DNA of 64,000 nucleotides, from NCBI GenBank assembly GCA_021827865.1, contig JAKAUC010000007.1, positions 10,981 to 74,980 of the forward strand, written 5' to 3'. The notes below the pieces were generated by a model. It saw only the letters and a program-made list of their open reading frames with translations. It searched no databases and had not been told where the DNA came from. This DNA is from an archaeon (lineage in GTDB: Archaea > Thermoproteota > Nitrososphaeria > Nitrososphaerales > Gagatemarchaeaceae). This document shows positions 23,911 through 34,900 of the stretch, one piece after another (the stretch's first letter is position 1; each line of letters begins with the position of its first letter). A program made the position numbers and the translations under genes.

Positions 23911-24279
23911 TTGCCTGATATCATGTCCCATGAATCTAGTCGGACCGAACTCACCGTAAAACTGACTGAAGAGAACTTCGACGATGCTGTCTCTGGGCCC
24001 ACGCCCGTGTTCGTGGACTATTGGGCCGTATGGTGCGGGCCGTGCAGGATCATGGACCCTGTGGTTGAGAAGCTTGCGGCGAAGTACTTTGGAAGAGTGC
24101 TCTTCGGGAAGGTGAACGTCGACGAAGAGATGAACATCTCTTCCCGATTCCAGGTCTTCTCCATCCCGACGTTCATGATATTCAAGAACGGGCAGCCGAT
24201 GGACGCGGTCATCGGGGCCGTGGGAGAGGCATCTCTGGAGAAGCTCATCACCGGCGCCATCGGCACCGGGACCCCATGA
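23911..24279 (+). CDS. trxA: Thioredoxin
   Basis: VDYWAVWCGPCRIM...FSIPTFMIFKNGQ. Confidence 0.9.
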   Translation: MPDIMSHESSRTELTVKLTEENFDDAVSGPTPVFVDYWAVWCGPCRIMDPVVEKLAAKYFGRVLFGKVNVDEEMNISSRFQVFSIPTFMIFKNGQPMDAVIGAVGEASLEKLITGAIGTGTP

Positions 24280-24280
24280 C

Positions 24281-25039
24281 CTAGGTCACCCTGGTCCCAT
24301 CTGTCAGGAATATGTCTGCCTCTTCGAGGCTTATCGACCTCGAGGATAGGACGGGCCCGAACTCGAACGACCTGCTCCTGTTGATAGGCTGTCCGCCGAC
24401 CAGCCTGTTGAAGGGGGGCATCACCGTCAGCCTACCCTTCCCCCGGAGCTTGGAGGGGTACCCTGCCCCCTCCATCAGCTTGGCGACGTCGTAGTCAGCG
24501 GTCACCCACACCGACTCCCTCGTCCTGGCGCCCATGCCGTCACGCATCTCGTAGGTGAAGTGGGAGTGGCCTATGACGAGGTTCCTCGTCGCAATGGCTT
24601 CCTCCGAGGGCCAGGCATGCCCGTGGGCAACCCCGATCTGCTTCCGCCCCTCGCCCAAGGTGGTCCCCTGAGACCTGTCCAGTTTCACGCGCGGGGGGAG
24701 GACCGTCTTGATGTTCCCGTCGTGGTTCCCCGGGACGACCTCCACGACCTCGAAGAGGTCCAGCATGGTGTCGAAGAACCACGGGACCGCCCCCCAGTCT
24801 ATGTCCTCCACCTTGCCGACCGTGTGCTTGACGTCTCCCAACACGACCAGCCTTGTTGTCGAATACTCCTCAGCAGCCCGCTTCACCCTCTCAACCATCC
24901 TCACCGAGTAGGCGGGTAGGCGGAAGCCTTTCTTCGCCATCTCCTTCTCCAGGCCGAGGTGCAGGTCGGATATCAGCAGGGTCTTGCTCTCGGCCGTAGA
25001 GAACACTAGCGCGGCTTCTCCGGGGACTATCTTCAGCAA
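24281..25039 (-). CDS. Calcineurin-like metallophosphoesterase (MPE / SbcD-like; Lhr- or ligase-associated type)
   Basis: ISDLHLG...VLGDVKH...VPGNHDG...HGH...GHSH metal-binding motifs. Confidence 0.8.
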   Translation of the reverse strand: MLKIVPGEAALVFSTAESKTLLISDLHLGLEKEMAKKGFRLPAYSVRMVERVKRAAEEYSTTRLVVLGDVKHTVGKVEDIDWGAVPWFFDTMLDLFEVVEVVPGNHDGNIKTVLPPRVKLDRSQGTTLGEGRKQIGVAHGHAWPSEEAIATRNLVIGHSHFTYEMRDGMGARTRESVWVTADYDVAKLMEGAGYPSKLRGKGRLTVMPPFNRLVGGQPINRSRSFEFGPVLSSRSISLEEADIFLTDGTRVT

Positions 25040-25040
25040 G

Positions 25041-25724
25041 CTACGCTATCAGCGGGAGGACCTGGCTCCCCACGAAGTTCTTGAACTCCGACAGCTCCAT
25101 CTTGCTGAACCCCGTCAGGATGCAGTTCCTCGTGAGCCCGAACACGTAGCCGTACTCCCTGCTCTTGAAGACGATGTACCACAGCTTCCCATGAGTAAGG
25201 TAGTCGGTGTAGAGGCTCGTGTTGCCCAGTTCAGCGCCATAGAGGGACAGCTTGGTGATGTTAGGCAGGTCGACGTCCGAATAGAATATCACCTTGGTGT
25301 CGTCGAAGTTCGCCTCATGGAACTTCCGTAAGGTCTCCGGGTCGATCCTGGCCTCGACCACCTGACCAAGGCTCATGAACACCGCCTTGCTCATCTCGTT
25401 CGCTATGTTGTTAGCTCGGTTTTTCTTGTCGTAGACAGTGAGGAACATCCTATCCTTGTACATTCCGAAGGAGAAAGGCGCTTCATAGGTCCTGGGGACC
25501 GGGACCGACTCGCCCCTGTGGGGGACCACGAAGACGGAGTCAAATGAGAACTTCCCCTCGAGTGACCCCTTGCCGACCCCCAGGTCTGTTATCTCTGACA
25601 CGAGCTTGAACTCCTTCCCCTCTACGCTCGTCTCCGTCTCTATCCTGAACGACTTCAACTTCTCCGCGAGGGTGTCGATCTCGTAGTTCTCCCTCACGAG
25701 GAAGACCTTGCCTGCTAGCACCAA
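25041..25724 (-). CDS. Hypothetical protein (227 aa) embedded between Lhr and MPE; no motif recognised
   Basis: Clean ORF. It lies 36 nt downstream of the Lhr stop and its stop abuts the MPE start. Confidence 0.6.
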   Translation of the reverse strand: MVLAGKVFLVRENYEIDTLAEKLKSFRIETETSVEGKEFKLVSEITDLGVGKGSLEGKFSFDSVFVVPHRGESVPVPRTYEAPFSFGMYKDRMFLTVYDKKNRANNIANEMSKAVFMSLGQVVEARIDPETLRKFHEANFDDTKVIFYSDVDLPNITKLSLYGAELGNTSLYTDYLTHGKLWYIVFKSREYGYVFGLTRNCILTGFSKMELSEFKNFVGSQVLPLIA

Positions 25725-25760
25725 CCCGTCCTGACCTCCACGAATCCTGTTATTGGGCTT

Positions 25761-28700
25761 TCAGCTCCCCCAGTACTGCCTGGTCGTGACGAACCGAATC
25801 TTAGCTTCGAGCAGGTCCCTGTAGAACGCCTCCTCGTCATCATGCATCTCGGCTAGGATCCTGGACGCGGTCTGCGGGCCGATGCCATAGACGGTCTGGG
25901 CGACGACCGCCTTCCTTCCGTACGACAGGACCAGGTCGGCCCCCCGCCTGGCCCGCGAAAGCTCAGAGCGCTCCTCTTCGTTCAGCTGGGTCCTGGCCTC
26001 TCTCTTCTTGATCAGTTCGGAGAGCTTGGCCGTCCCACAGTAACATGGAGCCAGGAGCCCTGACCCGCAGCTTCCGCACCGGGGCTCCTCAGGAACTTCG
26101 CCCACTGTGGTCTGGCCTTGGTCCGAGCCACACTTCACGCAAAGGAGGCTCACCTCGGTCCCGAATATGGTCGCCTTCAGCCTCTGGTAGGACGACTTCC
26201 CCAGTGAGTCGGGGGCAACGGCCTCGGGAACCTCGAGGTACCGATAGAGGAGACTGTAGGCGATGGGGGTGGGCCTCTCACCCGCTTGGAAGGTCTCAAC
26301 CGCTATCTTGCCGCCGGCCACCGCCATGAGAATCTCCTTCGAGTGACCCATGTCAATCAGGTCCCTCCCGGTCTCCTGCAGGGCCTCCTCGAAGATGGGG
26401 GTCTTTTCGAAGCGGGTAGGGAGGGAGCAGAGGTTGGGGTGGGCAATCAATTTGCCCCGCTTCAGCGCTCCGAACCTCTCGGCCACGAACTTCACTCGAG
26501 CAGGGAAGGGGAAGTTCCTCTGGGCGGCGACCGCATAGGTCCTCTCGAGCTCCTCGGGGGTCAGGCGCATCAGCTCCGTGGCAATCGCCTCAAGGTCCAG
26601 CTCCCCAGTCTCCGTGGTGAGCTCCATCAGAAGCCTGTATCCGTCGAGCCACCAGACTCTCACCAGTCCCCGCCTAGACAGGATCTCTTCGAACACATAG
26701 GCGAACGTCCTGTTGACCGACTCCCCGAAGCAGAGATGGACGATCAGGTACCGGCCGAAACCTTCGAAGAGGACCAGCCTATCCGATGGGACCGACGCTC
26801 CCATCTTCTTCTGCTCGGCGATCTGGTCCACAACGAGGGCCCGCGCAGCCGTGTCCCCGGGGATGTGCCCCTCGACCCTCTCGACCGCGTCTTGACCCGC
26901 GTCCAGCGCGTCTGAGACCTCCCTTCTCAGGCTGCCGGTCTCCACGGCGAGCTCGTATGGAATCGGCAGCATCTCGCCGTCCCACCCGGGGACGGCGGCG
27001 AGCGGGTCTTCAACGGGGGTCACATAGATCTTCCTGTCCTCGGCTATCTGTTCCACCTGCCACACCCGCCCCTTGATCACGAAGTGTATGCCGACCTTCG
27101 CCTTCAGAAGGACGAACTCCTCGCCCAGTATGCCCACGGTCTGGTTGGTGGACACGTCCACGACAAGGTATCTGGTCTCGTCGGGGATCATCGACAGGTT
27201 CTCGTAGTAGTACTCCCTAGTCAGTCTGGTCCTGGACAGCGTCGTGCCGTCGAATCTGAGCTTCCGGAGCTCTGCGAGATAGCCCACGGTTCTGAGGAAT
27301 GCGTCGTCTTGGAGGCCCTCGAACGGGGCTGCTTTCCTCACCTCCGCCAGCATCCTACTTGCCTCCATCGTCTCGAAGTCCATGAGGTACCCTGCGACCT
27401 GGTGGGCAAGCACGTCCAGGGAGTTCGAGTATGGCCTGGTGGGCTCGATCCTCTTCTGGGCGGCCGAGCGGATGCTGGCGGTGGACTCCATGATGTCATC
27501 CGCCGAGACCGTGACGAGGACGCCCTTGGAGACCCTCCCGAGCCTGTGGCCGCTCCTGCCGACGCGCTGCACGAGGCTTGTGACCTGCCTTGGTGACATG
27601 TACTGGACCACCAGGTCCACAGACCCCACATCGATGCCCAGCTCCAGGGTGCTGGTGCAGACCAGAGCCTTCAGCTCTCCGGCCTTGAACGCCTGCTCCA
27701 CCCGCTCTCGCTCCTCCCTGGGCAGCGACCCGTGATGGACCCCGACGTCCTTCCTGAGCCTGGCCAGCTTCTCTCCAAGCATCTCGGCGAGGGTCCTGCT
27801 GTTGACGAAGATGAGGGTCGAAGTGTGGCCGTCGATCAGGGCGTTGATCCGGGTGAGCCTGGCCGCCAGGTCGGGCGCCGAGTATGTCTCCTTGGCGGCT
27901 GACTGGCTCGCTGGGTCGGGGACCGGGTACTCGATGGCGAAGGCGAATTCCTTGGGCGCATCAGCCTTCACGATCTTAACGCTCCGGTTTCCGAAGAGGA
28001 ATTTGGCCGCCACCGCTGGAGTCCCGACGGTGGCGGAGAGCGCGACCAGCTGGAAGTCGGGAGCCACCTTCCGGAGCCGCTCCAGCCCTACGCAGAGCTG
28101 CACCCCTCGCTTGCTCTCTACCAGGTTGTGGAGCTCATCCACTACCACTGCCTTCAGGTGCGACAAGTTGTCCCTCATCCTCCGGCCCGGGAGTATCGCC
28201 TGCAATGTCTCCGGGGTGGTTACCAAGACGTCAGGGGGGTGCGTCGACTGCTTCGACCTCTGGGACTGGGGGGTGTCCCCATGCCTGACGTCGACCGTGA
28301 GCCCTAGCCTGGCGCACCAGGCTTGTAACCGCTTCAGCATGTCGCGGTTCAGGGCTCGCATGGGGGTGATGTACAGCAGCGAAATCCCGTCCCCGTGACC
28401 TTCAGACAACAGCCTGCTCAGCAGCGGAAGCATTGCGGCTTCGGTCTTCCCGGAACCTGTGGGGGCTACCACGAGGACGTCTCCCCCTCGAGAGACGAGG
28501 GGCCATGCCTCGATCTGGGGGGGCGTGGGCTCAACCATCCCCGTGTCTGCCAGGAACCCCCTCACGGCTGGAGCGAGAGCTTCGAACGCGGTCCGAGCAG
28601 ACAACAACGGTGAGAGGACCGCCACCCGATTTAAGGTGTCACGAGAGAGGGGTCGGTGAAACTGTATTCCGGCCTCCCGGGGGGCAATGTCTAAAAGCGC

Positions 28701-28769
28701 CCGGGGCCCGCGCAGGCTCGAAGCTTGTCCCGAGGCGTCAGAGAGGTCTCCCAGGAGAGGCCGTCTCAT
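25761..28769 (-). CDS. lhr: Lhr-type DExH helicase (Lhr-core + DEAD-associated domain) with a C-terminal Zn ribbon and HhH
   Basis: APTGSGKTEAAMLP, VVVDELHNL, SATVG, HHGSL, QRVGRSGHR, DVLAHQVAGYL, CVKCGS...CGSCGS, YGIGPQTASRIL. The true start is probably downstream of 28769, for example the GTG near 28625, because the first 45-50 codons overlap the divergent gene. Confidence 0.85.
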   Translation of the reverse strand: MRRPLLGDLSDASGQASSLRGPRALLDIAPREAGIQFHRPLSRDTLNRVAVLSPLLSARTAFEALAPAVRGFLADTGMVEPTPPQIEAWPLVSRGGDVLVVAPTGSGKTEAAMLPLLSRLLSEGHGDGISLLYITPMRALNRDMLKRLQAWCARLGLTVDVRHGDTPQSQRSKQSTHPPDVLVTTPETLQAILPGRRMRDNLSHLKAVVVDELHNLVESKRGVQLCVGLERLRKVAPDFQLVALSATVGTPAVAAKFLFGNRSVKIVKADAPKEFAFAIEYPVPDPASQSAAKETYSAPDLAARLTRINALIDGHTSTLIFVNSRTLAEMLGEKLARLRKDVGVHHGSLPREERERVEQAFKAGELKALVCTSTLELGIDVGSVDLVVQYMSPRQVTSLVQRVGRSGHRLGRVSKGVLVTVSADDIMESTASIRSAAQKRIEPTRPYSNSLDVLAHQVAGYLMDFETMEASRMLAEVRKAAPFEGLQDDAFLRTVGYLAELRKLRFDGTTLSRTRLTREYYYENLSMIPDETRYLVVDVSTNQTVGILGEEFVLLKAKVGIHFVIKGRVWQVEQIAEDRKIYVTPVEDPLAAVPGWDGEMLPIPYELAVETGSLRREVSDALDAGQDAVERVEGHIPGDTAARALVVDQIAEQKKMGASVPSDRLVLFEGFGRYLIVHLCFGESVNRTFAYVFEEILSRRGLVRVWWLDGYRLLMELTTETGELDLEAIATELMRLTPEELERTYAVAAQRNFPFPARVKFVAERFGALKRGKLIAHPNLCSLPTRFEKTPIFEEALQETGRDLIDMGHSKEILMAVAGGKIAVETFQAGERPTPIAYSLLYRYLEVPEAVAPDSLGKSSYQRLKATIFGTEVSLLCVKCGSDQGQTTVGEVPEEPRCGSCGSGLLAPCYCGTAKLSELIKKREARTQLNEEERSELSRARRGADLVLSYGRKAVVAQTVYGIGPQTASRILAEMHDDEEAFYRDLLEAKIRFVTTRQYWGS

Positions 28770-30731
28770 CTTACCACAGTAAAGGAGATCATCCTGGAGA
28801 ATTTCATGAGTTACGAGTATGCCCGGATACCCCTCCGCGAGGGCTTGAACCTGGTAGTCGGTCCCAACGGGGCCGGCAAGTCCTCGGTCCTCCTCGCCAT
28901 TTCCGTAGCGTTCGGGCAGGCGTACACCGAAAGGTCAAGGAAGCTCTCAGACCTCATCAGGCGCGGTAAAGACATCGCCCGGGTTTCTCTCATCTTCGAC
29001 AACTCCCAGAAGGCGGGGCGGAGGCCGATTCCCTACTCGAAGTCGGACACCTTCATGCTCAGCAGGTACCTGAGGCGCGACGGTTCGTACTGGTTCGAGG
29101 CGGACTACAAGGAGATAGACAAGAGCGAGGTCGTGAGGCTCCTCAGCGAGTTCGGCATCAACCCAGACAACCTGCTCATCATCATGCACCAGGGGATGAT
29201 AGAGGAGCTGGGCGCCGTCACCCCCCAGGAGCGCCTGAGGATGGTCGAAGAGGCGGTCGGGTTCTCCGAGTACAGGCAGAGGATCACGTTGGCCGAGCAG
29301 GAGCTGGGCGGACTGGTGGGAGAGGAGAGCTCCCTCCTCCAACTCATAGACAACGCCAACCAGGCCCTCGAATACTGGAAGCAGGTGTACGACCGCTACC
29401 AGGAGAAGCGGAGGCAAATCGAACACAGAGACCTCCTGACCAAGGAGCTTCTGTGGAGCACTGAGAACAAGCTCAGCAAGGCACTACAGGGCGCCGAGGA
29501 GAAGATTGCTTCGAAGACGAAGGCCCTTGAAGACCTGAAGTCGCAGCAGACCGAGGTCTCTTCCGACGCCGAGCAGACCCACCAGACGCTCCTGGACAAG
29601 CAGGTGGAACTGCGCAAGCTCTACTATGCCCTCGTGCGGGCGGAGTCGGAGAAGGCGAAGGACGAGTCGGCTCGCGACGCCTACCGGTCGATAAAGGACG
29701 ACCTCTCAGGGCTGTCAACCACGATTGACGAGCTCCTGTCAAAAGGGGGGGACAGGAGCGCGAAGAGGCTCAAGGAGCTCGCCGCGTACATCGAGCAAAA
29801 GAGCCTATCGGCCGAAGAGGATGCCCAGCGCCGCAAGACGGAGCTGGACAGAGAAGTCTCTTCCCTGCAGCCTGACATCACCAAGACCGAGGACCTCATC
29901 AGGCGCGCTACCGACAGCTACGTGTCCTTCAAAGTCAAGGCTGAGGTACTCTCGTACCGCATCAGAGTGACGGAGTCTGACCTCCACGACCTCGAGAGGA
30001 CTGCTAGAGAGTACAAAGCGGAGCTGGACAAACTGGCTCCGGACCTCGAAAGGGCGGGGGGCAGGATGGAGACAGCGCGCCAGCCCTATGAAGTCTCAGA
30101 GGAGCTGAAGCTTGTGTCCGCCCACATCCAAAAGATGCAGGACGTGCCCGACGACGCGGAGAAAATCTACAACGACTACTCTGGCAACATCGAAGAGCTG
30201 AAGGCGAAGCTCGCAATGCTCCAGGAGAACAAGAAGTCCATGCTCTCGGAGCTGGACTCGCGTAAGGGCATCTGGAGGAAAGCCATGGAAGATCTGGTTG
30301 AAACTGTGGATCCATCCTATCAGGCGGTCCTGTCCGCAACGGACGCCAGCGGCTTCATAAAGTTCGAGCAGGCTGACACCATCGAAGACGCCGGCCTCGA
30401 CCTATACGTCGGGTTCAGGGGGGGCGCCCCCACCACCCTCGATCCGTTCACCCAGAGCGGCGGGGAGCGGTCGGTGGCCCTGATGGCTTTCATCCTGTCC
30501 CTCCAGGCGAGGATAGTCTCCCCCCTGAGGGCGATGGACGAGTTCGACATACATATGGACCCCAAGAACAGGGAAGCGATGTTCAAGATGATTCTGTCGC
30601 AGATGAAGCAGAGGGAGGCCTCACAATACATCGTAATCACCCCGTCGATACTGACGGTGTTCGACAGGAGCGCCCACGTCATCACGGTCCAGGCGGTCCA
30701 CGGCTCGTCCGAGGTCAAGGAGCTGAAGTAA
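28725..30731 (+). CDS. SMC-superfamily ATPase, short coiled coil, no hinge or zinc hook; Smc5/6-like head motifs
   Basis: ILENFMSYEY, Walker A GPNGAGKSS, Q-loop IIMHQG, signature QSGGERS, Walker B AMDEFDIHMD, C-terminal QYIVITPSIL. About 330 aa of heptad-rich sequence separates the head halves. Confidence 0.8.
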   Translation: MSRGVREVSQERPSHLTTVKEIILENFMSYEYARIPLREGLNLVVGPNGAGKSSVLLAISVAFGQAYTERSRKLSDLIRRGKDIARVSLIFDNSQKAGRRPIPYSKSDTFMLSRYLRRDGSYWFEADYKEIDKSEVVRLLSEFGINPDNLLIIMHQGMIEELGAVTPQERLRMVEEAVGFSEYRQRITLAEQELGGLVGEESSLLQLIDNANQALEYWKQVYDRYQEKRRQIEHRDLLTKELLWSTENKLSKALQGAEEKIASKTKALEDLKSQQTEVSSDAEQTHQTLLDKQVELRKLYYALVRAESEKAKDESARDAYRSIKDDLSGLSTTIDELLSKGGDRSAKRLKELAAYIEQKSLSAEEDAQRRKTELDREVSSLQPDITKTEDLIRRATDSYVSFKVKAEVLSYRIRVTESDLHDLERTAREYKAELDKLAPDLERAGGRMETARQPYEVSEELKLVSAHIQKMQDVPDDAEKIYNDYSGNIEELKAKLAMLQENKKSMLSELDSRKGIWRKAMEDLVETVDPSYQAVLSATDASGFIKFEQADTIEDAGLDLYVGFRGGAPTTLDPFTQSGGERSVALMAFILSLQARIVSPLRAMDEFDIHMDPKNREAMFKMILSQMKQREASQYIVITPSILTVFDRSAHVITVQAVHGSSEVKELK

Positions 30732-30735
30732 CTTC

Positions 30736-31494
30736 TTGGAACAGACCAAGCTCGACGACTACCTCAGGGTGATAGAGCTATGCCGCGACGTCGAGACCAG
30801 CAGCGCGAACCCCTTCGACGTGGACATAAGGGAGAAGATACTGCTGTTGAAGCAGAGGCTCCCGGAGCTCAAGCTCCTGGACGAACTGTTGGTGGACTCG
30901 GAGGCGATGCTCGAGCTGGCGCAGATAGTGAAGCTTCAGGACCAGTGGCTGAAGTCGAGAGCTTCGGCTCTCTTCATCGACCCTCTTCTCATCCAGCTCA
31001 AGGTGAAGCTCCTCTCCAAGGAAGCCCTCACCGAGGCGTTCGTCAGGAGCTGGCACCCGATAGCCCAGGTGGACCAGCTGTCTCCCAGGGGGCTGGAGAA
31101 GGCCTTCGTCTACTGGCGCGAGCTAATCCCGCTCTCTGAGAGGTTCAAAGACCAGTTCGGGAACTACGGAGTCAGGCCGGGGACGGTCGATTACGCCGAC
31201 CTGGTCAGCACCGGCGTCTTCACCAGGGAGGAGTTCGAGGTCGAACTGACCCAGTTGTACGAAGAGCTCCTGAGGGAGTCCAACGGAGACTGGGTCGACT
31301 ACCGCCAGTTCATCGGGGTCGAAAGCTTCGAGATGAAGGTCAGGAGGGCATACCTCCTCGCGTTCCTCATCAGCGAAGGGAGGGCCCTCCTGAAGACCGA
31401 GCCTCTCACGGGAAGAATCTGGACCATGGCCCTGGCCGAGAAGACGAAGGGGACTCCGAAGTCTGTCGCGATATCGATAACGGGCGAGAATTGA
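30736..31494 (+). CDS. Kleisin-like (ScpA-like) subunit
   Basis: N-terminal NPFDVDIREKILLLKQRL...MLELAQIVKLQDQWL and C-terminal winged-helix-like VRRAYLLAFLISEGRALLKTEPLTGRIW resemble the ends of ScpA. Only a 4-nt gap follows the SMC-like gene. Confidence 0.6.
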   Translation: MEQTKLDDYLRVIELCRDVETSSANPFDVDIREKILLLKQRLPELKLLDELLVDSEAMLELAQIVKLQDQWLKSRASALFIDPLLIQLKVKLLSKEALTEAFVRSWHPIAQVDQLSPRGLEKAFVYWRELIPLSERFKDQFGNYGVRPGTVDYADLVSTGVFTREEFEVELTQLYEELLRESNGDWVDYRQFIGVESFEMKVRRAYLLAFLISEGRALLKTEPLTGRIWTMALAEKTKGTPKSVAISITGEN

Positions 31495-32054
31495 TGGAGT
31501 CGGACACCGCTGACAGGGCGCTTCTGGAGAGGAAGGTCAGGCGGGCCTTCCAGGTCTTAGTCCTCCAGCGTGGGCGTAACCCCGGCGTCAAGGGGTGGGA
31601 GATGAAGCGGTACCTGGGGAGGGACTACCGCAAGATCATCGGAGTCCTCTCAGAAGACGTCGCACCCATGGGCCTCGAGGTGTTCGAGGTGAAGGGCGTC
31701 GACGGGACCGACGATTCATCCCGCTTCCTCCTGAGGTTCAAGGAGCCTCCTACCGTCACGGAGGCGGAAACGTCGGGCATCAGGATAGACGACCTGGCTG
31801 TCCTCGCGGCAACCATCGCCTTCGTCAACTCCAAGACCGGCCGTGTCGCCAGGCGCGAGGTCGAGCAGTTCCTCAGGGAGAAGTTCCCCAGGTGGAGGAT
31901 CGACTACTCGCTCGACCGGTACGTGAAGCGCGGCTACCTAGAGCAGGACGAACGGACCATGGTGCACATAGGCTGGAGGACCAGAGCGGAGGTGGACGAG
32001 AAGACTCTCATGACGCTGATACTGTCGCGCGCTCAGGAAGCGGCGAAGAAGTAG
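31491..32054 (+). CDS. Tandem winged-helix kite-like subunit (ScpB / Nse3-MAGE-like)
   Basis: LERKVRRAFQVLVLQRG...GWEMKRYLGRDYRKIIGVLSEDVAPMGLEVFEVKG...SRFLLRF, then a second WH (VARREVEQFLREKFP...YVKRGYLEQDE). Its start overlaps the stop of the kleisin gene (TTGATG). Confidence 0.55.
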   Translation: MMESDTADRALLERKVRRAFQVLVLQRGRNPGVKGWEMKRYLGRDYRKIIGVLSEDVAPMGLEVFEVKGVDGTDDSSRFLLRFKEPPTVTEAETSGIRIDDLAVLAATIAFVNSKTGRVARREVEQFLREKFPRWRIDYSLDRYVKRGYLEQDERTMVHIGWRTRAEVDEKTLMTLILSRAQEAAKK

Positions 32055-34900
32055 CGCCTGCGCAGCGCCTCCCTCTCTCCTTCGATGATGAGTTCAACGA
32101 CATCCGTCCCTTCCTTCCTCATCTTCGCGGCCAGCGCTGCAGCTTCTGCCAGCCTTATCCCCCTCCCGGCCAGGATCATGTCAGCGGCGTGACCGTACTC
32201 CTTCCTCAGCTCCGACGACTTTCTGAGCGCCTCGACCACCTTCAGCTTGGCTCCGGTAAGAGCCGCCCTGCTCCTGGCCTTCATGGCCAGCGAGAAGACG
32301 TTCTCATAAGAGTCGGTCGAGAGCCCCAACCTAGGCTTCCCGCACGCGGGGCAGCTCTCGAGCCCCTCTAGGTCTGCGACCTTTCTAAGCTCCAGGAAGT
32401 TCCAGCAGCTGGTGCAGACCGCCACGAGGAACGTCTCGTTGACCCTTGCCCTGGTCGACTGCTTCAGGAGGGCCCTCAACCGCTCTGGTGAGACTATCTC
32501 TCCACGTCTGCTGATCTCCTCCACCCCGATTCTGGCGATGGGGGTGAGCCCCTCGTACTCTACCAGCTTCACGTCAATCGCGCCTGCGTTAATCTTCTCG
32601 ATCACGTCGGCAGCCGCCGAGAGGTCGAAGTCGTCGTGGAAAATCATGCTCATCGCCTCTTCGTAGACGGGGGTGTCCCTGAGGGCTTCGATGATCCCGG
32701 CGATGGAGACACTTGCGTAGTCTGCGTCCTTGGCTATGGCGCCGCACTTCTTGCCCGCGTGGATGAGGCGCCGCTTGAAGATCCCGCTCCTCTCTACGGC
32801 TTTCTCAGTCGCTGCCTTCAGGTCGAGCTTGTGGAGCTCCTCGACCACCGAAAGGACGACGGCGGGCGTCACCTCGGCCTCGATCACAATCCGGTAAGGG
32901 TCCTGGTGGACGGCTACCGACTGCCCTATCCGTTCGGAAATGAGGTGACCGAGGACCCTGGCCAGCAGCCTGTTCACCCTGTGCCCGAAGGCCGCCTGTA
33001 TGACCAGGTACTTGTCCCACTTCTCGATGGTCACAAGCCTCTCTGAGGGTATGGGGAGCTTCGCAGCCTGCTGCTCCGCGACCTCCTTCAAGGATTCCTG
33101 GAGGGCGTCCTTGGAGGCCGGGTAAGTCCTGGCCAGCTCGTCCAGGTATTCAGCCTCTCCACCCTTCTCCAACTCCTCGGCGTACCTCCTTCGTACGGAC
33201 CCTACCTCTGCCGCGACCTCCATCGGGACAGGTATCTCATCTCCCACCCAGTGGGGGACTGCACCCGTCGGATCATCCTCTGACCTCACGTATACCTTGT
33301 TCCCGTAGATCTGCTCTACCTTCCAGCACCTCCCCGCCTCCACGAACTTGACACCGACCTCCCCGTACTCCGACACGAACGCCTCGTCCAAGGTGCCGAC
33401 GAACGTGTCCCCTTCGATGACCAGGTACTGCTTCTCGTCCGGAATCATCGAGAGGTTGTCGAAGTAGTACTGGAACAGCGGCTTGACGTCCCTGGCGCGG
33501 AAGACCTTCCCGTCCGATTCACTGTAGTAGGCCAGGCGGGGATAGCGCTCCCGCATGTAGGTGAGCACCTTCTTCATCCTCTCCCCGTCGAGTTCCGCAT
33601 AGGCATAGCTCCTCTTGAAGAAGGCCACCAGGTCGTCGAAGTTCCAGTTCCCCTGCTCGATGAGCAGCCCGGCGACCTGGTGTATGGCCACGTCGTAGGG
33701 GTTGAAGATCGGCTCGAGGGGTTCCAGCTCGCCCATCACCGCCTTCCTGCAGAGCACGGCGGCTTCCAGCGTGTCGTCAGAGTCCTGGGTGATCACCAGC
33801 CCATTGGAGACCTCACCCACCCTGTGCCCGCTGCGTCCTACCCTCTGAATCAGCCTGGTCACCTGCCTCGGGGAGTTGTACTGAATCACATACTCAAGGA
33901 ACCCTATGTCTATGCCGAGCTCGAGGCTGCTCGTGCATATTACTCCGAGCAGCTTCCCATCCTTGAGGCTCCTCTCGACGGCTTCCCTGGTCGCCTTGGA
34001 CAGCGAGCTGTGGTGGACCGCTATGGCGAATCCTGGATCCCACACCCTGAATCGACTCGACAGCGCCTCGGCCTCCGACCGCGTGTTCGTGAAAATGAGG
34101 ACTGACCTGTATTTCTCCACCAGCTCCCTGACGGTCCTGAGCCTGGCCGCGACTTCGGGGTAGGAGTATATGGCATCGGCGAGGATCCTGTCGTCCCCCG
34201 TCGCCCTGGGGGCCACCACCTTCAGCGACAGGCTCTTCTCAACCGGGACGCGCACCACCTCGCATTCTCTCCCGTTCCCCACTAGGAACTGAGCGACCTT
34301 CTCCGGGGAGCCGACGGTGGCCGACAGACCGACTACCTGGAACTCCTTCTCTGCCACGTCCCTCAGCCTCTCGAGCCCGACGCTCAGTTGGCTCCCTCTC
34401 TTGTCCTCCGAGAGCTCGTGCACCTCGTCCACCACCACCCACCTCAGCTTCGCCAGGTTCTGCCTGATCCTCCTCCCCACGAGCATGATCTGGAGGGTCT
34501 CCGGCGTCGTGATGAGTATGTCGGGCGGGGCCAGGCTCAGGTTGGTCCTCTCTGCCTGGCTACTGTCTCCGTGCCTCACTCCCAGCCTGATGTCGAAGCG
34601 CTTGCACCACCACTGCATCCTGTCGAGCATGTCCCTGTTGAGAGCTCGGAGCGGGGTGATGTACAACAGTTTCGTCCCCTTCTCTCTCGTCTCGCCCTCG
34701 CGGATGATGGCGTCAAGAATCGGAAGCAGGGCCGCTTCAGTCTTCCCAGTCCCCGTCGGGGCCATGAGGAGCGCATTCTTTCCTTTCATCACTATGGGGA
34801 GGAGCTTCGCCTGGGGGTCGGTGGGGGAGTCGAATCCCCGTTCCTTCAAGGCTGCGAGCAGGGGAGGCGAAAGGAACTGGAAGACGTTCTGCCCTTGCAC
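32033..34900 (-). CDS. lhr: Second Lhr-type DExH helicase paralogue (Zn ribbon + HhH-like tail)
   Basis: APTGTGKTEAALLP, VVVDEVHEL, SATVG, HHSSL, QRVGRSGHR, DVAIHQVAGLL, CTSCWN...CPACGK. Confidence 0.85.
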   Translation of the reverse strand: MQGQNVFQFLSPPLLAALKERGFDSPTDPQAKLLPIVMKGKNALLMAPTGTGKTEAALLPILDAIIREGETREKGTKLLYITPLRALNRDMLDRMQWWCKRFDIRLGVRHGDSSQAERTNLSLAPPDILITTPETLQIMLVGRRIRQNLAKLRWVVVDEVHELSEDKRGSQLSVGLERLRDVAEKEFQVVGLSATVGSPEKVAQFLVGNGRECEVVRVPVEKSLSLKVVAPRATGDDRILADAIYSYPEVAARLRTVRELVEKYRSVLIFTNTRSEAEALSSRFRVWDPGFAIAVHHSSLSKATREAVERSLKDGKLLGVICTSSLELGIDIGFLEYVIQYNSPRQVTRLIQRVGRSGHRVGEVSNGLVITQDSDDTLEAAVLCRKAVMGELEPLEPIFNPYDVAIHQVAGLLIEQGNWNFDDLVAFFKRSYAYAELDGERMKKVLTYMRERYPRLAYYSESDGKVFRARDVKPLFQYYFDNLSMIPDEKQYLVIEGDTFVGTLDEAFVSEYGEVGVKFVEAGRCWKVEQIYGNKVYVRSEDDPTGAVPHWVGDEIPVPMEVAAEVGSVRRRYAEELEKGGEAEYLDELARTYPASKDALQESLKEVAEQQAAKLPIPSERLVTIEKWDKYLVIQAAFGHRVNRLLARVLGHLISERIGQSVAVHQDPYRIVIEAEVTPAVVLSVVEELHKLDLKAATEKAVERSGIFKRRLIHAGKKCGAIAKDADYASVSIAGIIEALRDTPVYEEAMSMIFHDDFDLSAAADVIEKINAGAIDVKLVEYEGLTPIARIGVEEISRRGEIVSPERLRALLKQSTRARVNETFLVAVCTSCWNFLELRKVADLEGLESCPACGKPRLGLSTDSYENVFSLAMKARSRAALTGAKLKVVEALRKSSELRKEYGHAADMILAGRGIRLAEAAALAAKMRKEGTDVVELIIEGEREALRRRYFFAAS

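What the first reader, a model, noticed from the sequence alone, without database searches (positions are those of the whole stretch)
25761..34900. Two paralogous Lhr helicases bracket the SMC-like operon
A 1002-aa and a 955-aa Lhr-type DExH helicase share the same domain order: helicase core, the DEAD-associated HQVAG block, an internal/C-terminal CxxC...CxxC ribbon and an HhH-like tail. They flank the SMC-like triad. The left one is head-to-head with it, and their predicted 5' ends overlap at 28725-28769. The right one is tail-to-tail, with a 22-nt 3' overlap at 32033-32054. This tight sandwich suggests a functional module (helicase plus loop-extruding or DNA-clamping ATPase). That logic resembles Wadjet/Smc5-6-type DNA surveillance or a repair machine, and I do not know of a described equivalent.
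Basis: inference. Interest (0 to 1): 0.6.

Follow-up and report, generated by a model that had tools for sequence, protein, structure and literature searches.

The report
Lhr helicases flanking archaeal SMC5/6-like operon
In this soil thaumarchaeon two anciently diverged Lhr repair helicases flank the archaeal relative of the eukaryotic SMC5/6 complex; the right-hand pairing is old and widely kept, the left-hand one is a local addition, and the link seems undescribed in papers.

Summary
The genes are real and at the stated coordinates. Both flanking proteins are complete Lhr-core helicases, 37% identical, and both carry the C-terminal CxxC...CxxC motif that marks the aLhr1 class. They are therefore not an aLhr1/aLhr2 pair. 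The middle triad is the already published archaeal SMC5/6-related complex: a Smc5/6-like ATPase, an Nse4-like kleisin and an Nse1/3-like kite. The genome also has a canonical SMC-ScpB.

The 22-nt convergent 3' overlap is real. The 5' overlap is an artefact of ORF extension. The true spacer is about 120 bp and holds two invariant TATA-like boxes.

The right-hand helicase (LhrB clade) abuts the kite gene across distant Thermoproteota and in a Hydrothermarchaeota MAG. Its linkage looks ancestral and was lost mainly in one clade. The left-hand helicase (LhrA clade) sits there only in close relatives, as an LhrA-X-MPE operon.

X, a 227-aa orphan with an RdgC-like predicted fold, is the most conserved neighbour of the SMC gene (23 of 38 lineages).

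A shared DNA-repair pathway is likely but unproven. Passive synteny remains a serious rival.

Earlier follow-ups in this scan had already noted a conserved Lhr neighbour on other genomes.

The parts
24281..25039 (-). MPE: Lhr-associated metallophosphoesterase (SbcD-related / PdeM-like), last gene of the LhrA-X-MPE operon
   Evidence: TIGR00024 SbcD_rel_arch 4.7e-23, PdeM 1.1e-15; Metallophos 0.001, just below the Pfam cut-off. It lies beside X in 10 of 38 lineages.
25041..25724 (-). X: 227-aa orphan with an RdgC-like predicted fold; the most conserved neighbour of the SMC5/6-like gene
   Evidence: No Pfam, NCBIfam or PDB sequence hit. All homologues listed are unnamed or 'hypothetical protein'. 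AF2 mean pLDDT 90.9. Foldseek top hits are RdgC 2owl/2owy, E 1e-6, prob 1.0, TMq 0.60. Present within about 9-10 kb of the SMC gene in 23 of 38 lineages, mostly head-to-head.
25761..28604 (-). LhrA (P0001): Lhr-core helicase with the aLhr1-type Cys motif and an HhH-like tail. The maximal ORF runs to 28769; the likely start is TTG 28604 (alternative GTG 28625)
   Evidence: Pfam domains. Start inferred. Separate paralogue clade, support 0.98.
28605..28724 (.). Divergent spacer with two invariant TATA-like boxes (ATTTAAG 28629-28635 for LhrA; TCTAAA 28690-28695 for the SMC gene)
   Evidence: Alignment of 15 relatives. The boxes and both start codons are invariant or nearly so, while the spacer as a whole has 59% mean column identity.
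28725..30731 (+). Short (668 aa) SMC5/6-related ATPase
   Evidence: SMC_N 8.7e-36. Best PDB sequence hits are yeast Smc5 at 1e-29 and Smc6 at 3.5e-22, ahead of prokaryotic SMC at about 6e-19. A canonical 1209-aa SMC lies elsewhere in the genome.
30736..31494 (+). Nse4-like kleisin
   Evidence: The family profile hits yeast Nse4 at 2.1e-5 and human NSE4/EID3 at 7.1e-5, with weak hits to ScpA. Always follows the SMC gene.
31491..32054 (+). Nse1/Nse3 (MAGE)-type kite, tandem winged helix
   Evidence: AF2 mean pLDDT 93.5. Foldseek top hits are Nse3 and Nse1 of 7dg2 (E 1.6e-6, TMq 0.69), followed by MAGE, JetB, ScpB and MukE.
32033..34900 (-). LhrB (P0002): Lhr-core helicase with the aLhr1-type Cys motif; the ancestral convergent neighbour of the kite gene
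   Evidence: Pfam domains. Orthologues adjacent to the triad in many lineages. Tree.
32033..32054 (.). 22-nt overlap of the convergent 3' ends of the kite gene and LhrB
   Evidence: Read directly. Similar 4-26-nt overlaps occur in L116, L128, L126, L129, L120, L060, L054, L056 and L053.

Best explanation
The stretch 24281-34900 is a conserved archaeal genome-maintenance gene cluster.

Core. The core is the published SMC5/6-related operon: a short Smc5/6-like ATPase, an Nse4-like kleisin and an Nse1/3-like kite. It is present in addition to the canonical SMC-ScpB.

Old neighbours. Two neighbours have stayed with this core over very long evolutionary distances. One is X, an RdgC-like-fold orphan, which lies head-to-head with the SMC gene. 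The other is LhrB (P0002), an aLhr1-class 3'-5' helicase, which lies tail-to-tail with the kite gene.

Local addition. In this organism's close relatives a second, anciently diverged aLhr1-class paralogue (LhrA, P0001) sits in front of X and the MPE nuclease. This makes an LhrA-X-MPE operon that points away from the SMC operon across a 120-bp spacer with two TATA boxes.

Inferred mechanism (not shown). The SMC5/6-like ring clamps branched or damaged DNA. The Lhr helicase or helicases unwind or remodel it. MPE trims DNA ends, and the RdgC-like protein modulates strand exchange. The products would thus act in one fork-rescue or recombination pathway, recalling the eukaryotic Smc5/6-helicase (Mph1/Sgs1) relationship, which I cite from memory.

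Shown: gene identities, paralogy, synteny pattern, co-occurrence. Inferred: any functional or physical coupling.
For: Identities:
-.
- The triad is extra to the condensin: a canonical SMC and ScpB are found on contig C20.

Neighbour census over 38 lineages:
- triad 38 of 38;
- X 23;
- Lhr 20 (LhrB 18);
- MPE 10;
- a generic ABC ATPase 12;
- every other real gene cluster 6 or fewer.

Phylum sample of 301 genomes (tallied by hand from the listed places):
- LhrB and the SMC gene are within about 6 kb in 44 of 117 genomes for which both places were listed.
- These fall in families f7, f9, f11, f15, f17, f27, f30 and f41.
- From the named loci, the same holds in nearly all non-AOA Nitrososphaeria and in Hydrothermarchaeota L060.

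Proximity survives rearrangement:
- co-directional in L076, L082, L083 and L115;
- gaps of 0.4-5.5 kb in L124, L058, L064, L130, L038 and L041.

Lhr tree: unlinked LhrB sequences form one clade (support 1.00) nested in a linked grade, so linkage is ancestral.

Co-occurrence (hand count):
- about 152 of 154 triad-positive genomes have LhrB;
- the same 12 of 16 genomes are positive for both in f13, and the same 2 of 8 in f27.

Lhr-X-MPE operons exist with either paralogue: LhrA here, LhrB in L076 and L082.

Literature: aLhr1 deletion strains of S. acidocaldarius are sensitive to DNA damage (PMC10003305).
Against: - No expression, interaction or genetic data exist.
- The kite-LhrB pair is convergent and so is not co-transcribed.
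- Its ends overlap, which could freeze the adjacency without any selection.
- The tree implies few independent events: one ancestral linkage and one main loss. The genome counts are therefore not independent.
- Thirteen families keep both gene sets unlinked, so adjacency is dispensable.
- LhrB also occurs without the triad (f12, f24, f28).
- LhrA linkage is confined to one order-level group plus two isolated cases (L104, L111).
- Hajj et al. 2021 found no conserved aLhr1 neighbourhood, although they annotated neighbours with TIGR profiles only.
Confidence: 0.5

Rival explanations
1. Passive synteny. LhrB and the kite gene are functionally unrelated housekeeping genes. Their adjacency is an ancestral accident, preserved because the convergent coding ends overlap and leave no neutral breakpoint. 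LhrA landed next door by a local rearrangement.
For: - 3' overlaps of 4-26 nt occur in most linked loci.
- The tree is compatible with a single origin and a single major loss of linkage.
- Thirteen families function with the genes unlinked.
- LhrB exists in families without the triad.
- Hajj et al. report no conserved aLhr1 context.
Against: - Where the overlap has been broken, the genes still stay within 0.4-5.5 kb and can even change orientation (L076, L082, L083, L115, L130, L064, L038).
- Every other flank except X and MPE has decayed to 6 of 38 lineages or fewer.
- Presence and absence of the two gene sets coincide exactly within f13 and f27.
- X and MPE, both repair-type genes, join the same cluster, and MPE is a known Lhr partner.
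Confidence: 0.3
2. Anti-plasmid or anti-virus defence island. An SMC-like sensor (Wadjet or Lamassu style) would work with BrxHI- or SngC-like Lhr helicases and a nuclease (MPE) as effectors.
For: - Both Lhr proteins score 335-347 bits against the PADLOC BrxHI model and about 295 bits against SngC.
- The SMC gene gives weak LmuB (1.2e-17), mad3 and JetC hits.
- Smc5/6 restricts viral DNA in humans, according to the abstract of PMC10586767.
Against: - The kleisin, kite, X and MPE have no PADLOC hit.
- The SMC is closer to Smc5/6 than to JetC or LmuB.
- The locus sits among housekeeping genes: Nramp, DtxR, NUDIX, thioredoxin and lipoyl synthase.
- Its distribution is broad and lineage-consistent, with a tree that follows families, unlike patchy defence islands.
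- BrxHI is simply an Lhr-family helicase, so those hits reflect family membership.
Confidence: 0.07
3. Assembly or binning artefact. The two helicase copies, or the sandwich itself, would result from chimeric assembly of two strains.
For: - The MAG has 7.5% contamination.
- A second, 80%-identical copy of the locus lies on contig C15.
Against: - The same gene order is found on 34 independent contigs from other MAGs, including a 1.8-Mb chromosome and a 1.1-Mb contig.
- The two helicases are only 37% identical and belong to separate ancient clades.
Confidence: 0.01

Closest known systems
Archaeal SMC5/6-related complex operon (van Hooff et al., bioRxiv 10.1101/2024.01.07.573240; Yoshinaga & Inagaki 2021, PMC8665677)
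   Same: - Three-gene operon of an SMC closest to Smc5/6, an Nse4-related kleisin and an Nse1/3-related kite.
- Found in TACK archaea alongside a canonical SMC complex.
   Different: - Neither 'helicase' nor 'Lhr' occurs in the van Hooff preprint, and no searched paper holds Lhr, SMC5 and archaea together. I did not search the Yoshinaga paper for these terms. MPE and an RdgC-like neighbour were not looked for in either paper.
- Here the operon is embedded in a conserved cluster with aLhr1-class helicases, X and MPE.
aLhr1 helicases of Archaea (Hajj et al. 2021, PMC8301817; S. acidocaldarius Saci_0814, PMC10003305)
   Same: - Lhr-core architecture plus the C-terminal Cys-rich motif in both window proteins.
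- Deletion strains of aLhr1 in Sulfolobales are sensitive to DNA damage.
   Different: - Two ancient paralogue clades (LhrA and LhrB) both carry the aLhr1 hallmark. The paper reports two aLhr1 paralogues only for Thermoproteales, and it found only aLhr1, not aLhr2, in Thaumarchaeota, where the ammonia oxidisers I checked carry one Lhr.
- A conserved SMC5/6-like neighbour was not reported; the paper states that no gene conservation was found.
- Placement against the reference aLhr1 sequences was not tested.
Bacterial and archaeal Lhr-MPE cassette (cited in Hajj et al. 2021; Ejaz & Shuman work recalled from memory)
   Same: An Lhr-core helicase co-oriented with a TIGR00024/PdeM-type metallophosphoesterase.
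   Different: - A third, conserved gene (X) is wedged between the helicase and MPE.
- X and MPE stay with the SMC operon even when no Lhr precedes them, as in L052, L054 and L060.
Eukaryotic Smc5/6 and its helicase clients (Mph1/FANCM, Sgs1/BLM), from memory
   Same: An Smc5/6-type complex associated with a 3'-5' DNA helicase implicated in fork and recombination-intermediate processing.
   Different: - Lhr is not orthologous to Mph1 or Sgs1.
- The association here is genomic only.
- There is no Nse2 SUMO ligase and no Nse5/6.
RdgC (bacterial recombination-associated ring-shaped DNA-binding protein, PDB 2owl/2owy)
   Same: The predicted fold of X matches RdgC (E 1e-6, prob 1.0, TMq 0.60).
   Different: - No sequence similarity, and no Pfam hit at all at E<=1.
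- X is about 75 residues shorter.
- Alignment rmsd is 6.5-8.5 A.
- Ring formation and DNA binding are untested.

Membership tests
Lhr-core helicase family | SF2 DExH RecA1 + RecA2 core with intact motifs | tested here: met
   DEAD at about 3.5e-38 and Helicase_C at 4.5e-23 and 5.1e-20 in the two proteins. Motifs read from the sequences: APTGSGKT/DELH/SAT/QRVGRSGHR in P0001 and APTGTGKT/DEVH/SAT/QRVGRSGHR in P0002.
Lhr-core helicase family | Lhr winged-helix domain and Domain 4 (DEAD_assoc, PF08494) | tested here: met
   WH_Lhr at 8e-14 and 2.5e-13; DEAD_assoc at 2.4e-17 and 1.4e-31, all above the Pfam cut-offs. Best PDB hit is M. smegmatis Lhr 5v9x.
aLhr1 class (Hajj et al. 2021) | Additional Cys-rich motif at the C-terminal end | tested here: met
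   CxxC...CxxC is present in both proteins and conserved in 53 of 54 aligned Lhr sequences of both clades. The criterion is quoted from the paper.
aLhr1 class (Hajj et al. 2021) | Phylogenetic grouping with reference aLhr1 sequences (SiRe_1605, Saci_0814, P. abyssi Q9V0H2) | not tested
aLhr2 class | Lhr-core without the C-terminal Cys motif; reported as not found in Thaumarchaeota | tested here: not met
   Both proteins carry the motif.
Archaeal SMC5/6-related complex | SMC head closer to Smc5/Smc6 than to condensin-type SMC | tested here: met
   Smc5 at 9.7e-30 and Smc6 at 3.5e-22, against prokaryotic SMC at about 6e-19. This is a similarity ranking, not a phylogeny.
Archaeal SMC5/6-related complex | Nse4-related kleisin encoded next to the SMC gene | tested here: met
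   Profile A3 hits yeast Nse4 at 2.1e-5 and human NSE4/EID3 at 7.1e-5. The gene starts 4 nt after the SMC stop codon.
Archaeal SMC5/6-related complex | Nse1/3-type kite (tandem winged helix) | tested here: met
   Foldseek: 7dg2 Nse3 at 1.6e-6 with TMq 0.69, and Nse1 at 3.3e-5, on a model with mean pLDDT 93.5.
Archaeal SMC5/6-related complex | Coexists with a separate condensin-type SMC complex | tested here: met
   A 1209-aa SMC and ScpB are on contig C20. ScpA was not detected by Pfam.
Wadjet (JetABCD) | JetA, JetB and JetC family membership plus a JetD Toprim nuclease | tested here: not met
   PADLOC gives only weak JetC hits (1.6e-11) and nothing for the kleisin or kite. No JetD-like gene was seen among the neighbours annotated; the rest of the window was not screened for JetD.
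Lhr-MPE cassette | TIGR00024/PdeM-type metallophosphoesterase co-oriented with an Lhr-core gene | tested here: met
   TIGR00024 at 4.7e-23 for 24281-25039(-), on the same strand as LhrA. An extra gene, X, lies between them.
RdgC family (for X) | Sequence membership (Pfam RdgC) | tested here: not met
   No Pfam hit at E<=1. Only fold similarity was found.
BREX (BrxHI helicase) | Co-located core BREX genes (PglX methyltransferase, BrxC, PglZ) | not tested
   I did not search for these genes specifically. The neighbours annotated are housekeeping or repair genes. The BrxHI hit reflects Lhr-family homology.

The most novel reading that the evidence does not exclude
The aLhr1-class helicase would be a dedicated working partner of the archaeal SMC5/6-like complex, docked physically, for example through its Zn-ribbon/HhH tail. 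The RdgC-like ring protein X would act as a loader or DNA-junction adaptor and MPE as the nuclease. That would make an archaeal forerunner of the eukaryotic Smc5/6-helicase fork-protection axis.
Probability: 0.17. Interest if true: 0.8.

Novelty: new variant of a known kind. Interest (0 to 1): 0.55.

Why it matters
The biochemical role of the archaeal SMC5/6-related complex is unknown, and so is the cellular role of aLhr1 helicases. A conserved gene cluster joining the two, together with an MPE nuclease and an RdgC-like orphan, gives a concrete and testable hypothesis for all four. It may also bear on how the eukaryotic Smc5/6 repair machinery came to work with DNA helicases. Finally, it corrects the published picture of Lhr in these archaea: two ancient aLhr1-type paralogues are present, and aLhr1 genes do have a conserved neighbourhood.

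Tried and rejected
1. aLhr1 + aLhr2 pair: rejected, because both proteins carry the aLhr1 Cys motif.
2. Recent duplication of one helicase: rejected. Identity is 37% and the clades are separate and include other classes.
3. Triad as the housekeeping condensin: rejected, because a canonical SMC and ScpB lie elsewhere.
4. Triad as ASRP, coalescin, Rad50 or arcadin-4: these NCBIfam hits are far below their cut-offs.
5. Wadjet, Lamassu or BREX: see the rival explanations.
6. Contig C15 as a true second locus: it is 80% identical at the nucleotide level and collinear over 10 kb in a bin with 7.5% contamination, so it is more likely a co-binned relative.
7. Naming the aLhr class by similarity to M. 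smegmatis or E. coli Lhr or to PRK13767: the scores do not discriminate.
8. Using the single Lhr of ammonia oxidisers as a reference: it is about equally distant from both window proteins, at 33-35%.
9. Looking for a kleisin or kite next to the SMC5/6-like genes of ANME and Methanosarcinales: none was found even with relaxed HMM searches; only X was found in some.
10. Looking for a conserved partner of LhrB where it is unlinked from the triad: none was found, apart from a tandem LhrA-like gene in f26 and f46.
12. Sequence-family searches for X: nothing was found.
Full report
OBSERVATION

- P0001, 25761-28769 (-), 1002 aa.
- P0003, 28725-30731 (+), 668 aa.
- P0004, 30736-31494 (+), 252 aa.
- P0005, 31491-32054 (+), 187 aa.
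- P0002, 32033-34900 (-), 955 aa.

Both outer proteins have the complete Lhr-core set of DEAD, Helicase_C, WH_Lhr and DEAD_assoc. Both hit M. smegmatis Lhr as their best solved structure. They are 37% identical over 916 aligned residues, and the alignment starts at P0001 residue 56.

The 22-nt convergent overlap at 32033-32054 can be read directly from the sequence.

The 5' overlap is not real.
- Orthologues align to P0001 only from about residue 53-61.
- I aligned the spacer from 15 relatives. Two boxes are invariant: ATTTAAG at 28629-28635 and TCTAAA at 28690-28695.
- The TTG at 28725, the SMC start, is also invariant. A CAA at 28602-28604 is nearly invariant; on the minus strand it is a TTG start for the helicase.
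- The rest of the spacer varies (59% mean column identity).
- Each box lies about 25-35 nt upstream of its start codon. This is what one expects of archaeal TATA boxes on leaderless or short-leader mRNAs (inference).
- The two genes are therefore divergent across about 120 bp with separate core promoters.

WHAT THE MIDDLE GENES ARE

P0003 matches yeast Smc5 (1e-29) and Smc6 (3.5e-22) better than any prokaryotic SMC.

A profile of 36 P0004 homologues hits yeast Nse4 (2.1e-5) and human NSE4/EID3 (7.1e-5).

The AlphaFold model of P0005 has mean pLDDT 93.5. It matches Nse3 and Nse1 of the Nse1-Nse3-Nse4 complex best (E 1.6e-6, TMq 0.69), followed by MAGE proteins, JetB, ScpB and MukE.

The genome separately encodes a 1209-aa canonical SMC with ScpB, and a Rad50-like gene.

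This is therefore the 'SMC5/6-related' archaeal complex described by van Hooff et al. and Yoshinaga & Inagaki. The van Hooff preprint does not contain the words 'helicase' or 'Lhr'. No paper in the searchable library holds Lhr, SMC5 and archaea together.

WHAT THE HELICASES ARE

Hajj et al. 2021 distinguish aLhr1 from aLhr2 by an extra C-terminal Cys-rich motif. Both window proteins have a CxxC...CxxC motif. These four cysteines are conserved in 53 of 54 Lhr sequences that I aligned from both clades and from ammonia oxidisers. The pair is therefore two aLhr1-type paralogues, not aLhr1 + aLhr2.

Trees separate an LhrA clade from an LhrB clade.
- LhrA holds P0001, two sequences from other classes that lie near the triad, and two from f26 and f46 that are unlinked from it (support 0.98).
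- LhrB holds P0002 and the widespread orthologues (support 0.92).
- The duplication is therefore ancient.

I could not place either clade against named reference aLhr1 sequences.

IS THE JUXTAPOSITION CONSERVED?

I used three data sets.
- 80 named loci from GTDB genomes.
- A 301-genome sample of the phylum, searched with the SMC gene and with P0002.
- Windows of about 9 kb on either side of the SMC gene in 40 diverse genomes, annotated with locus-derived HMMs.

Census. Clustering all flanking ORFs over 38 lineages gave the following.

| Gene cluster | Lineages (of 38) |
|---|---|
| SMC, kleisin, kite | 38 each |
| 227-aa orphan X | 23 |
| Lhr | 20 (LhrB 18) |
| Generic ABC ATPase | 12 |
| MPE | 10 |
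| Any other real gene | 6 or fewer |

Two clusters with 7 and 8 lineages are antisense shadow ORFs inside the SMC gene.

LhrB (right-hand helicase).
- It mostly abuts the kite gene tail-to-tail, with overlaps of 4-26 nt.
- This is seen in families f7, f9, f11, f15, f17 (one genus), f27, f30 (in part) and f41.
- It is also seen in deep Nitrososphaeria, in a Hydrothermarchaeota MAG (L060) and in an unclassified archaeon (L064).
- By my hand tally, the two genes lie within about 6 kb in 44 of 117 genomes where both places were listed.
- These counts are not independent. In the LhrB tree the unlinked sequences (13 families) form one clade with support 1.00, nested in a grade of linked ones. The simplest history is an ancestral linkage lost once, plus a few genus-level losses.

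Proximity after rearrangement.
- LhrB is co-directional in L076, L082, L083 and L115.
- Gaps of 0.4-5.5 kb occur in L124, L058, L064, L130, L038 and L041.

Co-occurrence.
- About 152 of 154 triad-positive genomes have LhrB (hand count).
- The positive genomes are the same 12 of 16 in f13, and the same 2 of 8 in f27.
- LhrB also exists without the triad (f12, f24, f28).

LhrA (left-hand helicase).
- The full sandwich occurs in 34 loci of close relatives, mostly at 75% SMC identity or more, with one at 63%.
- In L034 and L035, LhrA lies in tandem upstream of LhrB on the right side.
- In about a dozen relatives at 62-65% SMC identity it is absent from the 10 kb on either side.
- It reappears near the triad only in L104 (f44) and L111 (f31).
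- Tandem LhrB-LhrA pairs unlinked from the triad occur in f26 and f46.

EXTENSION OF THE CLUSTER

Downstream of LhrA lie X (25041-25724) and an MPE (24281-25039). The MPE matches TIGR00024 at 4.7e-23 and is PdeM-like. This is the phosphoesterase type that Hajj et al. and earlier bacterial work associate with Lhr.

X has no Pfam, NCBIfam or PDB sequence hit. In a 5.8-billion-protein collection the best 120 homologues listed are either unnamed or called 'hypothetical protein'. It is nevertheless strongly conserved, with 48% mean column identity over 29 lineages.

Its model has mean pLDDT 90.9. The model matches the recombination-associated ring protein RdgC (2owl and 2owy; E 1e-6 to 2e-5, prob 1.0, TMq 0.56-0.60).

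In most lineages X lies head-to-head with the SMC gene. This includes Methanosarcinales and ANME loci where no kleisin or kite is adjacent. In this window's lineage LhrA has been placed between X and the SMC gene. In L076 and L082 the order is LhrB-X-MPE. Either paralogue can therefore head an Lhr-X-MPE operon.

INTERPRETATION

The descriptive picture is solid. This is a conserved archaeal cluster of DNA-maintenance genes centred on the SMC5/6-like operon. X and LhrB are old neighbours. MPE and LhrA are additions in some lineages.

A shared pathway (fork rescue or processing of recombination intermediates) is an inference. It rests on four things.
- The conserved neighbourhood.
- The co-occurrence pattern.
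- The known DNA-damage phenotypes of aLhr1 mutants.
- The eukaryotic precedent of Smc5/6 acting with helicases, which I cite from memory.

The main rival is frozen ancestral synteny of overlapping convergent genes. A defence reading is weak.
- PADLOC hits to BrxHI, SngC and DpdJ reflect Lhr-family homology.
- The kleisin, kite, X and MPE have no defence-model hits.
- The flanks are housekeeping genes.

EARLIER NOTES OF THIS SCAN

Follow-ups on other genomes had already remarked on a conserved Lhr neighbour of this operon. First-reader notes on this window flagged the mis-set start and the Lhr-orphan-MPE operon.

My analyses agree with these notes. They add the paralogue structure, the ancestral-linkage tree, the quantified census, the aLhr1 assignment and the RdgC-like fold of X.

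Noticed in passing
window 25041-25724 (-): The 227-aa orphan X is the most conserved neighbour of the archaeal SMC5/6-like gene (23 of 38 lineages, usually head-to-head). Its confident predicted fold matches bacterial RdgC, although it has no sequence-family hit.
   Followed up: partly
G000 contig C15 (15,114 bp), aligned to window 24004-34171: A second, collinear copy of the whole MPE-X-LhrA-SMC-kleisin-kite-LhrB locus lies on contig C15. It is 80% identical at the nucleotide level, in a bin with 7.5% contamination, so it is probably a co-binned related strain and not a true duplication.
   Followed up: partly
L021:5660-9904 (-): The LhrA orthologue of a peat MAG (SPRUCE 323) is 1414 aa. An intein (Intein_splicing at 1.2e-7, below the Pfam cut-off, plus a LAGLIDADG domain above it) splits its RecA2 domain. 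Inteins at this site were reported for aLhr2; here one is in an aLhr1-type protein.
   Followed up: partly
L063, L065-L068, L070-L075, L077, L079, L080, L084: In ANME, Methanosarcinales and 'Halobacteria' MAGs, SMC5/6-like genes at 42-44% identity have no recognisable kleisin or kite next to them. Four of them (L067, L068, L073, L080) still have X head-to-head.
   Followed up: partly
window 28725-30731 (+): The SMC5/6-like ATPase is only 668 aa, against about 1090 for Smc5. Its alignments to Smc5 and Smc6 cover heads and proximal arms only, so it appears to lack a hinge. Other follow-ups in the scan noted the same.
   Followed up: no
G049, G057, G089 (family f10): In three genomes of one family LhrB lies a constant 16 kb or so from the SMC5/6-like gene on the same contig. 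This looks like a loosened but still regional linkage.
   Followed up: no
L147:1871-7885, L148:1671-7911; L034:13297-18983, L035:13305-18930: LhrA-type and LhrB-type genes occur as same-strand tandem pairs in four unrelated loci, in both orders. This hints that the ancient duplication was tandem, or that the two helicases work together.
   Followed up: no
window 28640-28680: A partly conserved GAGAGGGG...GAAAGTGT stretch lies between the two TATA-like boxes of the divergent spacer. It could be a shared regulator site.
   Followed up: no
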